DNA of 64,000 nt, taken from the NCBI RefSeq assembly GCF_056746865.1, contig NZ_CM163382.1. One strand, 5' to 3'. The number at the start of each line of letters is the position of its first letter. Within the stretch, counting starts at the first letter, position 1. Position numbers: made by a program. Positions 3,001-6,000 of this stretch are shown here, in pieces.

Positions 3001-6000
3001 TTTCTGACGAATTCCGGGGAGCGAGGGAACAGTTCAGGGAAATCGTTACTCAGTCGAGAAACACCGCTTTTCAGGCTAACTTACTGAAAACCTCAGAAGA
3101 ATTTGCCATCATATTCCGCAAGGAGTTAACTTCAAATATTGTCAATCGCCTCGTTGCAGATATTTCTGTAGTAACGAACCTGAATGGTTTTCAGGAACTG
3201 GGGTTCGGGAAACTGAATGCGTTATCCGAAGGACTCAAAAAACTTCTCTTTAAAGTCATCATGCGAAAACGTAATATCCTCACCTATGAGTTCAGGGGAA
3301 ATAAAATAATCAGGGATTTATATGACTTTTACAATGAAGGAGAGAATTATAAATTTCTGCCTCCTGAACTTAAATTCACCTTACCCCAACCAGATTCCTG
3401 TATATTTGAAATCAGCAAAAAACGAGCAGTGGTTGACTATATTTCAGGTATGATGGATACATTTGCAGTCAAGGAATGGGAAACTCACTGTCTGAAGTAA
3501 CACTGCCGATTACCAGAGGCGCATATTTTCCCGTTATGGTTATTGCGCCTTTATTCCGTTTCGGTGACAGGTTATTTTAAATATTCTGGAAATGCGTTGA
3601 TGGGCAAGAACAATTACCCTGAAAATAAATACAGGAAATGGTTTTCCACAGCAATAACATATCTTATTACAGGTGGTTTGTGCTGGTATATGTTGTGGGC
3701 ATCCGCTATATCTCATTATACTGTTTTACAAAATACGGTACCTGAATGGACAACATATTTTTGCACCGGTATAATCACCGGATCTCTTTCTTTTATTTAT
3801 GCATTTTATATCCGCACCTTTAACAGAACATTAAAGTCTTTATTAAATGCATTCACGGGGGGATTTTGTCTTGGATTTATACTGAGTCCTGATGAATCCC
3901 CTAATGATTTTGATAAAAATCATTAGGGGATTCATCAGTGCTTGACCTTGTTTAAAAGCTGTAATATCGCAATTTACTAACTCAATATCTAAATCCATTG
4001 GCTTGGATGTACCTCCTGCCTCAAGGAAGCTTTTTGAAAGCTGTCCAAAATCAATAGACTGATCAGCTGATTTCTGAGAAATGCTGCATGGAGCATCAAC
4101 AACAGTTCCGTTAAAAGTTACTTTACCCTGCCCCTGTGGAATAGTTGGAGCAGCATTTACACCAAAAGACACCACTGCCATAGCTACCGCACCGGCAATA
4201 ATCGACTTAATCATAAATAACAACCTCTTTTTCATTACTGAACACACCAGAGATATCTGGCAATTTAAAATGACCCGATTACCTTTAATAACCAGATCAA
4301 TACAAATAATATTCTCGTATTTTCAGGGCAGGTTATTTATCGACAGAATACTGATATAACCTGTCTGCTTTCTGATAAGGACTTCTTTTTATCTGTAAGA
4401 TAACTCCGGAATGCCATCATTCAGTCAAATGCCGACGACTCATCTGTATAATAAGGTGCAAGCCTTGCTGCAAGAGCATTCAGCCGTATAAGTCTCCCAA
4501 GTGTTGTACTGAAATACCCATTATTCATCTGGTATTTCTCGCAGACCTCCTTACGGGAGTGCCCACCTACCAGATAGTCCTTCATAGCCAGAATGACCCT
4601 GTCACTGTGAATAGAAGAAATACCTATCAGTAAAAAAAAATGCATTTCAGACATAGAGCCGGGCAACAGTACGCTCTCGCGTATATTCAGCAAAAACGCA
4701 TTTCCTGACCGACTGATGACTTCATGATGCGCCATGTTTCCCCCTTCTGTCGGGCCCCTGGATATATGCTTCCGGCCCGGAAATACTCTTCACGCAATAA
4801 GTTAAATTTAGTTTTTTATGTTGTAAATATTGATTTAAACGATCTTTTAACCCACAAAATAAAATTAAACTAGAATAAAACACTAATAATAAGAATGCGC
4901 TCAGATAAAAACATCATAGTAAATTGAATTTACAGCATAAAAGATCGTCTAAATGCATTTTTACGGACTTTCTTTTCACAGAAAAATAAAACGCAAAATG
5001 TGATACATATCAAATAAAGCAAATAAAAAGCAAATTCACTAAATTGCACAAATAAAGCAAACACAGCAAACACAGCAAACACAGAGAATAAAAATACCTT
5101 TCCGTTGATAACAGAAAGCATGATTTTTATTATTCGAAGAAACTTTGTTACAGTGAGATGAGTGAATATATGAAGAATGAAATACTGGAATTTCTGAACA
5201 GGCATGATGGAGGGAAAACGGCAGAAATTGCGGAGGCGCTGGCGGTAACGGATTACCAGGCCCGCTATTACCTGTTATTACTGGAAAAAGCAGGTATGGT
5301 TCAGCGCTCACCATTAAGACGGGGCATGGCAACATACTGGCTTCTGAAAGGAGAGAAGCAGGCGGGGCAGAGTTGTTCACTTTGCAAACTCTGCCGACCA
5401 GTGGTGATCCGTTCGGTGACGGGATTGGCAAGGTAGCCGGGTCCAGCCTGCACGCCGGCGTGGCGGCCAGGGCCGATGAACGCAAGAAGCTCGAACGGCT
5501 GTGCCGGTACATCAGCCGCCCGGCGGTATCCGAGAAGCGGCTGTCGTTAACACGAGGCGGCAACGTGCGCTACCAGCTCAAGACGCCGTACCGGGACGGC
5601 ACCACGCACGTCATTTTCGAACCATTGGATTTCATTGCAAGGCTGGCCGCCCTGGTACCGAAGCCCAGAGTCAACCTAACCCGCTTCCACGGGGTGTTCG
5701 CACCCAACAGTCGGCACCGGGCGTTGGTCACGCCGGCAAAACGGGGCAGGGGCAACAAGGTCAGGGTGGCTGATGAACCGGCAACACCAGCACAACGGCG
5801 AGCGTCGATGACATGGGCGCAACGGCTCAAGCGTGTTTTCAATATCGACATCGAGACCTGCAGCGGCTGCGGCGGCGCCATGAAAGTCATCGCCTGCATT
5901 GAAGACCCTATAGTGATCAAGCAGATCCTTGATCACCTGAAGCACAAAGCCGAAACCAGCGGGACCAGGGCGTTACCCGAAAGCCGGGCGCCACCGGCTG

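What the first reader, a model, noticed from the sequence alone, without database searches (positions are those of the whole stretch)
3889..3938. 50-bp Tn10 nearly-precise-excision-type footprint joining two truncated genes
Two 23-bp IS10 outside-end sequences face each other across a 4-bp spacer, 50 bp in total. This is the structure expected after Tn10 nearly precise excision, which leaves a 50-bp inverted-repeat remnant of the element ends. The footprint supplies the stop codon of the left ORF and abuts truncated papA, and the flanking 9-mers differ, so it marks a Tn10-associated rearrangement joint rather than a simple insertion and excision.
Basis: partly seen in the sequence, partly recalled or inferred. 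Interest (0 to 1): 0.55.

Follow-up and report, generated by a model that had tools for sequence, protein, structure and literature searches.

The report
Tn10 excision scar joining two genes
A 50-base palindrome in this E. coli chromosome is the scar left when the tetracycline-resistance transposon Tn10 was almost entirely deleted; it marks where two unrelated gene fragments were joined, and it is a textbook kind of scar, useful mainly as a historical marker.

Summary
Window 3889-3938 is a perfect 23+4+23 palindrome made of two IS10 outside ends. It is base-for-base one of the two products predicted for deletion between the 24-bp subterminal repeats of Tn10 ("nearly precise excision").

I found the parent. 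E. coli APEC O2-211, D10 and others among 135 complete genomes with this papA-IS10 junction carry a full 9,147-bp Tn10 in papA. It sits at the right-hand 9-mer TGCTTGACC, with the same papB-papI-ISCR2 flank (1 mismatch in 2,360 nt).

The left flank is the 5' half of a different gene, a 189-aa protein encoded downstream of a dGTPase defence gene, broken after TACTGAGTC. So the scar sits on a hybrid joint.

Draft genomes hold a full-length IS10 end at that left joint, which is the pre-excision state. They also hold scars with spacers GGTA, GATA and TATC.

The joint occurs in about 128 of 5,426 complete E. coli genomes and on one plasmid.

The left flank was most likely exchanged by recombination between two Tn10/IS10 copies; strain TUM9803 shows reciprocal hybrid scars of this kind. 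An IS10-promoted adjacent deletion is not excluded.

This is a known kind of scar, of low to moderate interest.

The parts
3889..3911 (+). Left arm: IS10 outside-end positions 1-23, terminus facing left
3912..3915 (.). 4-nt spacer GATA. It matches the spacer of the right-hand IS10 of papA::Tn10. Variants GGTA and TATC occur at the same joint in other genomes.
3916..3938 (-). Right arm: IS10 outside-end positions 1-23, terminus facing right
3902..3938 (.). 37 nt identical to the right end of Tn10 in APEC O2-211 and D10. This is the start of the block shared with papA::Tn10 genomes.
   Evidence: (window 3902-6261 vs L010 21221-23580, 1 mismatch in 2,360)
3880..3888 (.). Left 9-mer TACTGAGTC, the breakpoint in the hypothetical gene. 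It matches the IS10 target consensus GCTNAGC at 4 of 6 positions.
3939..3947 (.). Right 9-mer TGCTTGACC, one copy of the target duplication of the ancestral Tn10 insertion in papA
   Evidence: TGCTTGACC on both sides of the full Tn10
3600..3888 (+). 5' 289 nt of a 570-nt gene for a 189-aa hypothetical protein downstream of dgt. The 3' 281 nt are missing.
   Evidence: intact in UMNF18 L004 8151-8720 and in YZ22PE68
3600..3926 (+). Fusion ORF of 108 aa: 96 native residues plus PDESPNDFDKNH, with the stop codon supplied by the scar
   Evidence: exact protein on 590 contigs
3939..4214 (-). 5' 276 nt (92 codons) of the 549-nt papA. The 3' 273 nt and papH-papG are missing.
3843..4214 (-). Read-through ORF of 123 aa: papA residues 1-92, then 31 aa encoded by the scar and the antisense of the left gene
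2268..3500 (+). dGTPase (dgt-family) defence gene upstream of the truncated gene
   Evidence: (PADLOC dGTPase, E 2e-109)
4421..4735 (-). papB, intact
5158..5436 (+). papI, abutted by a truncated ISCR2 (5364-6026). The same junction is present in APEC O2-211 and D10.
50470..52000 (.). Stretch 100% identical to the D10 and APEC O2-211 pap-island backbone. Identity drops to the right of about 52 kb, which marks the right-hand limit of this stretch.

Best explanation
The 50 bp is an inert scar of Tn10, produced in three steps.

(1) Shown: a 9,147-bp Tn10 (tetB) inserted into papA of a pheU/pheV pathogenicity island and duplicated TGCTTGACC. That island already carried ISCR2-sul2 next to papI.

(2) Inferred, with the resulting state observed: the left end of the element became joined to TACTGAGTC inside an unrelated gene downstream of a dGTPase gene. 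This removed the 3' half of that gene, the 3' half of papA and papH-papG. The most likely route is homologous recombination between papA::Tn10 and a second Tn10 or IS10 inserted in that gene, possibly as the left crossover of an imported block whose right crossover lies in the shared island backbone near 52 kb.

(3) Sequence-exact: slipped-strand deletion between the two 24-bp subterminal direct repeats of Tn10 (23 of 24 identical) removed all but 13+24+13 = 50 bp, including tetB.

The scar has no function of its own. It truncates both genes, supplies a stop codon to one, and forms a strong hairpin.
For: The palindrome and its match to IS10 ends are shown. The predicted excision product equals the window's 50 bp exactly, and the Tn10 repeats are 23/24 identical.

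A full Tn10 sits at TGCTTGACC in papA with the TSD on both sides. 135 complete genomes have the papA3'-TGCTTGACC-outside-end junction. Window 3902-6261 is 99.96% identical to that parent, including the papI/ISCR2 junction.

Intact forms of both truncated genes are known.

A full-length IS10 outside end (at least 218 nt) abuts hyp'-TACTGAGTC in three draft assemblies. It is identical to, or 1 nt different from, the left IS10 of KSC9/D10-type Tn10. Both predicted products (GGTA and GATA spacers) occur at this joint.

Independent simple scars with perfect 9-bp duplications lie at three plasmid sites. One of those sites carries both GATA and GGTA forms.

There is a precedent for hybrid flanks made by recombination between two Tn10 copies. 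TUM9803 has reciprocal scars T1-R-T5 and T5-R-T1 around a Tn5393-like segment.

The D10-like stretch 50470-~52000 ends at a change in identity in the backbone near 52 kb.

On the literature: nearly precise excision is attributed to Ross 1979 and Foster 1981. Missing TSDs are attributed to recombination between IS copies or to adjacent deletions.
Against: No 9-bp duplication flanks the scar, so one step is inferred rather than read from the sequence.

The reciprocal junction (outside end-TACTGAGTC-3' half of the gene) was not found in 5,426 complete E. coli genomes or in JGI metagenomes. The inside-end version of that junction was not searched.

The contigs with full-length IS10 at the left joint break inside IS10. 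It is therefore unknown whether that element is the hybrid Tn10 or a solo IS10 in an otherwise intact gene.

The TATC spacer variant is not a predicted product of D10-type Tn10 and needs an extra event, a spacer inversion.

The original 1979 and 1981 papers could not be read here. The 24-bp-repeat mechanism was reconstructed from the sequence and from recall.
Confidence: 0.9

Rival explanations
1. The scar is the same, but the left joint was made by transposase. In this reading an IS10/Tn10-promoted adjacent deletion joined the left outside end of papA::Tn10 directly to TACTGAGTC in a gene lying further left on the same chromosome, deleting everything in between. Nearly precise excision followed.
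For: The outside-end terminus is joined precisely to a 9-mer that matches the IS10 target consensus at 4 of 6 positions, as genuine sites do (P of at least 4/6 by chance is about 0.04, my arithmetic). No reciprocal junction exists in any collection searched. IS10 adjacent deletions are documented (Roberts et al. 1991, cited). The pre-excision state is also compatible with this route.
Against: No genome was seen with the dgt module and the pap island in cis in the required order. APEC O2-211 and D10 have pheU/pheV-int-...-papG directly, and YZ22PE68 has the dgt island without pap. The D10-like stretch is bounded on the right by a change of backbone, which suggests import by recombination. By recall of Roberts et al. 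1991, adjacent deletions by IS10 are rare. TUM9803 shows that the recombination route operates in this lineage.
Confidence: 0.3
2. Excision came first. Two separate 50-bp scars, one in papA and one in the dgt-adjacent gene, each with its own duplication, later recombined through their 50 bp of identity.
For: The 50-bp scars are widespread, in 150 E. coli genomes and 63 plasmids. TUM9803's paired scars could also arise this way.
Against: No simple papA::scar exists in 5,426 complete genomes, and no scar-TACTGAGTC-3' gene junction was found. A full-length IS10 end exists at the left joint, which shows the joint existed before excision. Fifty bp is close to the minimum for RecA recombination (recall).
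Confidence: 0.07
3. The 50 bp is a miniature mobile element (an IS10-derived MITE) moved in trans by IS10 transposase, rather than a scar formed in place.
For: It carries two intact outside ends. At three plasmid sites it is flanked by perfect 9-bp duplications, as a transposed element would be.
Against: Here it has no duplication. The only copy in the 64-kb window is this one, and the sampled genomes carry one full-length copy. Its right 37 nt are continuous with the flank of the resident Tn10 in the parent. The spacers match those of the local Tn10 ends, and one plasmid site carries both predicted products. Two ends 50 bp apart cannot plausibly synapse (inference).
Confidence: 0.02
4. It is a chance palindrome, a native regulatory hairpin or an intrinsic terminator.
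For: The RNA hairpin is strong, at -42 kcal/mol with z = -9.9.
Against: The chance expectation is about 2e-8. The hairpin is absent from intact homologues of both genes. No U-tract follows it, and the terminator and promoter scans do not call it. It is identical to IS10 ends.
Confidence: 0.01

Closest known systems
Tn10 nearly-precise-excision remnant (Ross, Swan & Kleckner 1979 Cell 16:733; Foster et al. 1981 Cell 23:215; references seen)
   Same: It is 50 bp long and made of two IS10 outside ends with their termini facing outward. Its sequence equals the deletion between the 24-bp subterminal direct repeats of a real Tn10. tetB and both IS10 copies are lost.
   Different: The laboratory remnant keeps the 9-bp target duplication on both sides. 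This one has unlike 9-mers, because the left flank was exchanged before excision.
Hybrid IS/transposon joints made by homologous recombination between two copies at different sites, with loss of matching target duplications (reviewed in PMC11708052)
   Same: The element is flanked by halves of two different target duplications, and the DNA between the two sites is lost or replaced. TUM9803 shows both reciprocal joints for Tn10.
   Different: Here the element was afterwards reduced to 50 bp, and the second insertion (in the dgt-adjacent gene) has not itself been observed.
IS10-promoted adjacent deletion (Roberts, Ascherman & Kleckner 1991 Genetics 128:37; cited)
   Same: An outside-end terminus is joined to new DNA with no duplication, and neighbouring genes are deleted.
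   Different: This route requires the two genes to have been in cis. No such ancestor was found.
Hairpin-associated minute inversions (small loop inversions between short inverted repeats, described for chloroplast non-coding DNA; recalled, not checked here)
   Same: The TATC variant is the exact reverse complement of the GATA spacer between perfect 23-bp arms, in an otherwise identical 14-kb background.
   Different: To my knowledge this has not been described for Tn10 remnants. The mechanism here is inferred.

Membership tests
Tn10 nearly-precise-excision remnant | Two IS10 outside-end termini in inverted orientation, termini facing outward | tested here: met
   Both arms equal outside-end positions 1-23.
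Tn10 nearly-precise-excision remnant | The sequence equals the deletion between the two 24-bp subterminal direct repeats of Tn10 (50 bp left) | tested here: met
   The repeats are 23/24 identical, and predicted product 2 is identical to window 3889-3938.
Tn10 nearly-precise-excision remnant | A full-length Tn10 exists, or existed, at the same site | tested here: met
   Right junction. Left junction: a full-length IS10 end in draft assemblies, although the other end of that element is unknown.
Tn10 nearly-precise-excision remnant | Flanked by the 9-bp target duplication of the original insertion | tested here: not met
   TACTGAGTC vs TGCTTGACC. Only the right copy of the papA duplication remains. 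Simple remnants at three plasmid sites do meet this feature. So this is a remnant on a hybrid joint, not a simple insertion-excision.
Tn10 nearly-precise-excision remnant | Formed independently of transposase and RecA by slippage stimulated by the inverted repeats | not testable with these tools
   Needs genetics (recA, mutS, sbcCD and uup backgrounds).
Transposase-made IS10 junction | The 9 bp next to the terminus resembles NGCTNAGCN | tested here: inconclusive
   The left 9-mer matches at 4 of 6, and genuine duplications in this data set score 2-6. Chance P is about 0.04.
IS10-promoted adjacent deletion | The deleted DNA lay between the element and the new joint in the ancestor | tested here: inconclusive
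   No cis arrangement was seen in APEC O2-211, D10, YZ22PE68 or UMNF18. This absence is not proof.
MITE | Multiple dispersed copies per genome with target duplications | tested here: not met
   The only copy in the 64-kb window is this one, and sampled genomes hold one full-length copy. There is no duplication here.
Intrinsic terminator | A GC-rich hairpin followed by a U-tract | tested here: not met
   makes no call at 3889-3938. No T-run follows on either strand.

The most novel reading that the evidence does not exclude
The scar is not an inert fossil but a small, dynamic palindrome. In nature the same joint exists with a full-length element and with spacers GGTA, GATA and TATC. TATC is the exact inversion of GATA in an otherwise identical 14-kb background. 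All four combinations of spacer orientation and downstream arrangement occur. One plasmid copy has lost an arm. This would make Tn10 scars a natural read-out of repeated nearly precise excision and of hairpin-driven spacer flipping or template switching in wild E. coli.
Probability: 0.4. Interest if true: 0.4.

Novelty: already known. Interest (0 to 1): 0.3.

Why it matters
The scar dates and orders events in a widespread chromosomal resistance island of E. coli. It shows that the floR-tet(A)-strAB-sul2 island next to cadC descends from a P-fimbrial pathogenicity island that once carried Tn10 in papA. It also shows that the island lost tet(B) and the fimbrial structural genes.

The junction is a specific 50-bp barcode for that lineage, including its escape to an NDM-5 plasmid.

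Parent, pre-excision state and alternative products are all preserved in public genomes, giving a natural record of a reaction that I know only from laboratory genetics. It does not reveal a new mechanism.

Tried and rejected
- **Reciprocal junction.** I searched for outside end-TACTGAGTC-3' half of the left gene. None was found in complete E. coli genomes or JGI metagenomes.
- **Full IS10 at the left joint in complete genomes.** None was found. It turned up only through exact look-up of the predicted fusion proteins.
- **Simple papA::scar with both duplications.** None was found.
- **Scars with any spacer in one genome per species.** There was a single hit, a probably contaminant contig labelled Streptomyces.
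- **3' fragment of the left gene as a look-up handle.** It has no usable in-frame start codon, so the inside-end reciprocal junction could not be searched.
- **A third IS10 in APEC O2-211 as the outer end of a large composite transposon.** It has its own perfect duplication, GGCTGTGTG, and D10 lacks it, so there is no support for this idea.
- **My initial recollection of the IS10 spacer (GGTA).** It disagreed with the first matches (TATC). Both exist: D10/APEC-type Tn10 has GGTA at one end and TATC at the other.
- **The classic papers.** They are not held in the library. Only 4 and 0 papers matched the relevant terms.
- **The odd KSC9 structure.** I could not derive it from a single event.

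Full report
**1.
The repeat finder reports one perfect inverted repeat at the stated coordinates. The arms are at 3889-3911 and 3916-3938, 23 nt each, 100% complementary and 4 nt apart. A perfect 23-bp hairpin with a short loop is expected about 2e-8 times in 64 kb.

The ORF on the plus strand (ATG at 3600) ends at a TAG at 3924-3926, inside the right arm. On the minus strand, papA starts at 4214 and runs up to 3939. It then reads through the palindrome to a stop at 3843. The 9-mers on either side are TACTGAGTC and TGCTTGACC.

**2. The arms are IS10 outside ends, and the 50 bp is the predicted excision product.**
Hundreds of E. coli genomes carry IS10 ends that match window 3902-3938 exactly. 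A search with a synthetic junction (3' part of papA + TGCTTGACC + outside end) found 135 complete genomes that contain it.

In APEC O2-211 the element is a complete 9,147-bp Tn10: IS10, the central genes, tetR(B), tet(B), tetC and IS10. TGCTTGACC lies on both sides. D10 has the same structure.

The two ends of this Tn10 carry 24-bp subterminal sequences, TAATGATTTT-GGTA-AAAATCATTA and TAATGATTTT-GATA-AAAATCATTA. They are direct repeats identical at 23 of 24 positions. Deleting between them leaves 13+24+13 = 50 bp with spacer GGTA or GATA, and the GATA product is identical to the window sequence.

This is the reaction called nearly precise excision (Ross et al. 1979; Foster et al. 1981; references seen). 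The mechanistic detail is from recall and from the sequence itself, because the papers are not held.

**3. The right flank is inherited from papA::Tn10.**
Window 3902-6261 differs from APEC O2-211 at one base in 2,360. That base, at 4202, also differs from ECCNB12-2 and EC-14-2-9, the scar-type genomes compared. The shared stretch includes the right 37 nt of the scar, papA codons 1-92, papB, papI and the junction of papI with a truncated ISCR2.

The intact papA is 549 nt, and the window keeps the first 276.

**4. The left flank is a different gene.**
Window 1-3892 is 99.95% identical to an island of UMNF18. There, a 570-nt gene for a 189-aa protein follows a dGTPase gene and is followed by an H-NS-family gene. 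The window keeps its first 289 nt: 96 residues, then 12 residues and the stop codon from the scar.

The dGTPase matches the PADLOC dGTPase defence model at E 2e-109. The small protein matches nothing in PADLOC.

The same island module lies at leuX in UMNF18. In YZ22PE68 it lies at a chromosomal position matching that of scar-type genomes, with the gene intact and no pap genes. In the scar-type genome ECCNB12-2 the module is linked to pheU on the left and cadC on the right.

**5. Distribution.**
The whole joint (1,201-nt query) is present in 128 of 5,426 complete E. coli genomes, always on the chromosome. Hosts include chicken, pig, cattle, dog, duck, pheasant, gull, panda, river water and humans. 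It also occurs in one JGI metagenome contig.

One IncI-gamma/K1 NDM-5 plasmid, pNDM5_LS003, carries it too. There, 27 nt (the right arm plus TGCT) are missing.

The exact fusion protein of the window type is recorded on 590 contigs.

**6. The pre-excision state and alternative products exist.**
I looked up the fusion protein expected for each possible spacer, and all three are in the collection.

- **GGTA version.** Three assemblies (SRR14865372, GCA_036910475.1, GCA_050938635.1) have a full-length IS10 outside end continuing for at least 218 nt directly after hyp'-TACTGAGTC. It is identical to the IS10 of KSC9 and 1 nt different from the left IS10 of D10's Tn10. A fourth contig has a GGTA scar followed by TGCTT.
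- **TATC version.** At least 16 contigs carry a 50-bp scar at the same joint, and so does one complete genome, EC-14-2-9. Over about 14 kb, EC-14-2-9 differs from ECCNB12-2 only at the two spacer positions (3912, 3915) and one further SNP at 2865. The TATC spacer is therefore the exact inversion of GATA.
- **All combinations occur.** GATA and TATC are each found with the ancestral ISCR2-glmM'-sul2 arrangement and with the floR-tet(A) arrangement.

So the joint existed with a full-length element. Both predicted products were formed, and the spacer has flipped at least once.

**7. How the left joint was made (inferred).**
The outside-end terminus is joined precisely to a 9-mer that matches the IS10 target consensus at 4 of 6 positions, like genuine sites. 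The joint was therefore made by transposase at some point, either as an ordinary insertion or as an adjacent deletion. I consider two routes.

(a) *A second Tn10 or IS10 inserted in the dgt-adjacent gene, and homologous recombination with papA::Tn10 produced a hybrid element.* This is the standard explanation for unlike flanks, and it has a direct precedent in this lineage. TUM9803 carries papA3'-TGCTTGACC-scar-CACTCGGCT-(7.75-kb Tn5393-like segment)-CACTCGGCT-scar-TGCTTGACC-papA5'. These are both reciprocal hybrid joints, as expected when a circle carrying a Tn10 recombines with papA::Tn10. A Tn10 inside Tn5393 is described. In addition, a backbone stretch (50470 to about 52 kb) is 100% identical to D10, and identity then falls. 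This fits a block imported by two crossovers, one in Tn10 and one in the shared backbone.

(b) *An IS10-promoted adjacent deletion* (Roberts et al. 1991, cited). This route predicts that no reciprocal junction ever existed. None was found, but the inside-end version could not be searched. It also needs an ancestor with both modules in cis, and none was seen.

I put route (a) at about 0.55 to 0.6, route (b) at about 0.3, and recombination between two pre-formed scars at under 0.1. The last is penalised because no simple papA scar exists and because of the full-length state in section 6.

**8. What the scar does.**
It has no function of its own. It folds into a -42 kcal/mol hairpin, but it has no U-tract and is not called as a terminator or promoter.

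Its consequences are structural:
- loss of tet(B);
- loss of papA function and of papH-papG, so no P fimbriae from this locus;
- retention of papB and papI as orphan regulators;
- truncation of the small protein encoded next to the dGTPase gene.

**9. Comparison with simple scars.**
63 plasmids and 150 E. coli genomes carry a full 50-bp scar. Three independent plasmid sites have perfect 9-bp duplications:
- IncK2/Z: TGTTAAGTT;
- IncI1/B/O pESBL-12: TACCAGGTG;
- the IncF leading region: GGCAGAGCG.

The IncF site occurs with GATA in two plasmids and with the GGTA-type spacer in a contig labelled Streptomyces morookaense. Both predicted products are thus seen at one site. Only the scar in the window, the TUM9803 pair and the KSC9 form lack matching flanks.

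**10. Verdict.**
The thing is a known kind of scar at a hybrid joint. Its value is as a lineage marker and as a natural record of parent, intermediate and products.

The searchable literature holds almost nothing on natural remnants, but the mechanism is decades old. Interest is low to moderate.

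Noticed in passing
L037 (NZ_CP135671.1, TUM9803) 4186-4244 and 11992-12059: Two 50-bp GGTA scars flank a 7.75-kb Tn5393-like segment (strA, strB, aph(3')-Ia, tnpA, tnpR, and IS1133 split at CACTCGGCT) inside papA. The flanks are reciprocal: T1-R-T5 and T5-R-T1. This looks like integration of a Tn10-bearing circle into papA::Tn10, followed by two excisions.
   Followed up: partly
L011 (NZ_CP018323.1, KSC9) 12111-13507: The structure is papA3'-TGCTTGACC-50-bp GGTA scar-TGCTGAGCA-inverted IS10-TGCTCAGCA-Tn10 interior. The two 9-mers are reverse complements and are perfect IS10 hot-spot sequences. 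This cannot be explained by one excision and remains unexplained.
   Followed up: partly
window 3912-3915; L036 (EC-14-2-9) and L024-L031: The spacer occurs as GATA or as its exact reverse complement TATC in otherwise identical backgrounds, and each occurs with both downstream arrangements. This suggests recurrent hairpin-mediated inversion of the 4-nt loop.
   Followed up: partly
L002 (pNDM5_LS003, NZ_OP290546.1) around 6590-6620; corresponds to window 3916-3942: The plasmid copy of the joint lacks 27 nt (the right arm plus TGCT). This is either palindrome instability or an assembly error. It shows that the chromosomal dgt-scar-papBI-ISCR2-floR segment moved to an IncI-gamma/K1 NDM-5 plasmid.
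   Followed up: no
L017 (NZ_JABBXF010000164.1, labelled Streptomyces morookaense) 2308-2357: A 4.9-kb contig carries a Tn10 scar at the same site as IncF plasmids (TSD CGCTCTGCC, the reverse complement of GGCAGAGCG) but with the other spacer. It is almost certainly enterobacterial plasmid contamination in a Streptomyces assembly.
   Followed up: partly
window 2268-3888: A dGTPase defence gene (PADLOC E 2e-109) is followed by a small gene for a 189-aa hypothetical protein with no PADLOC match, which the scar truncates. Whether the small protein is a partner of the dGTPase is unknown.
   Followed up: partly
window 50470-52500: The backbone (ProQ/FinO, HTH region) is 100% identical to D10 and APEC O2-211 up to about 52 kb and then switches to another variant. 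ECCNB12-2 switches about 1 kb earlier. This points to mosaic recombination among related pheU/pheV/leuX islands.
   Followed up: partly
window 4421-5436: papB and papI survive intact as orphan regulators after loss of the fimbrial structural genes. Recalled literature reports that PapB cross-regulates type 1 fimbriae; this was not examined here.
   Followed up: no
window 5364-6261: A truncated ISCR2 abuts papI at the same base in APEC O2-211, D10 and the window. To the right of 6261 the window has virD2-like-floR-lysR-ISCR2'-tet(A), where the ancestor has glmM'-sul2.
   Followed up: partly
L016/L020 (D10) vs L010/L012/L013 (APEC O2-211): The same papA::Tn10 island sits at pheV in D10 (flanks yqgA and yghD) and at pheU in APEC O2-211 (flanks dicD and cadC).
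   Followed up: no
window 4202: A T (versus C) that differs from every compared genome, giving Val5Ile in the PapA signal peptide of the truncated gene.
   Followed up: no
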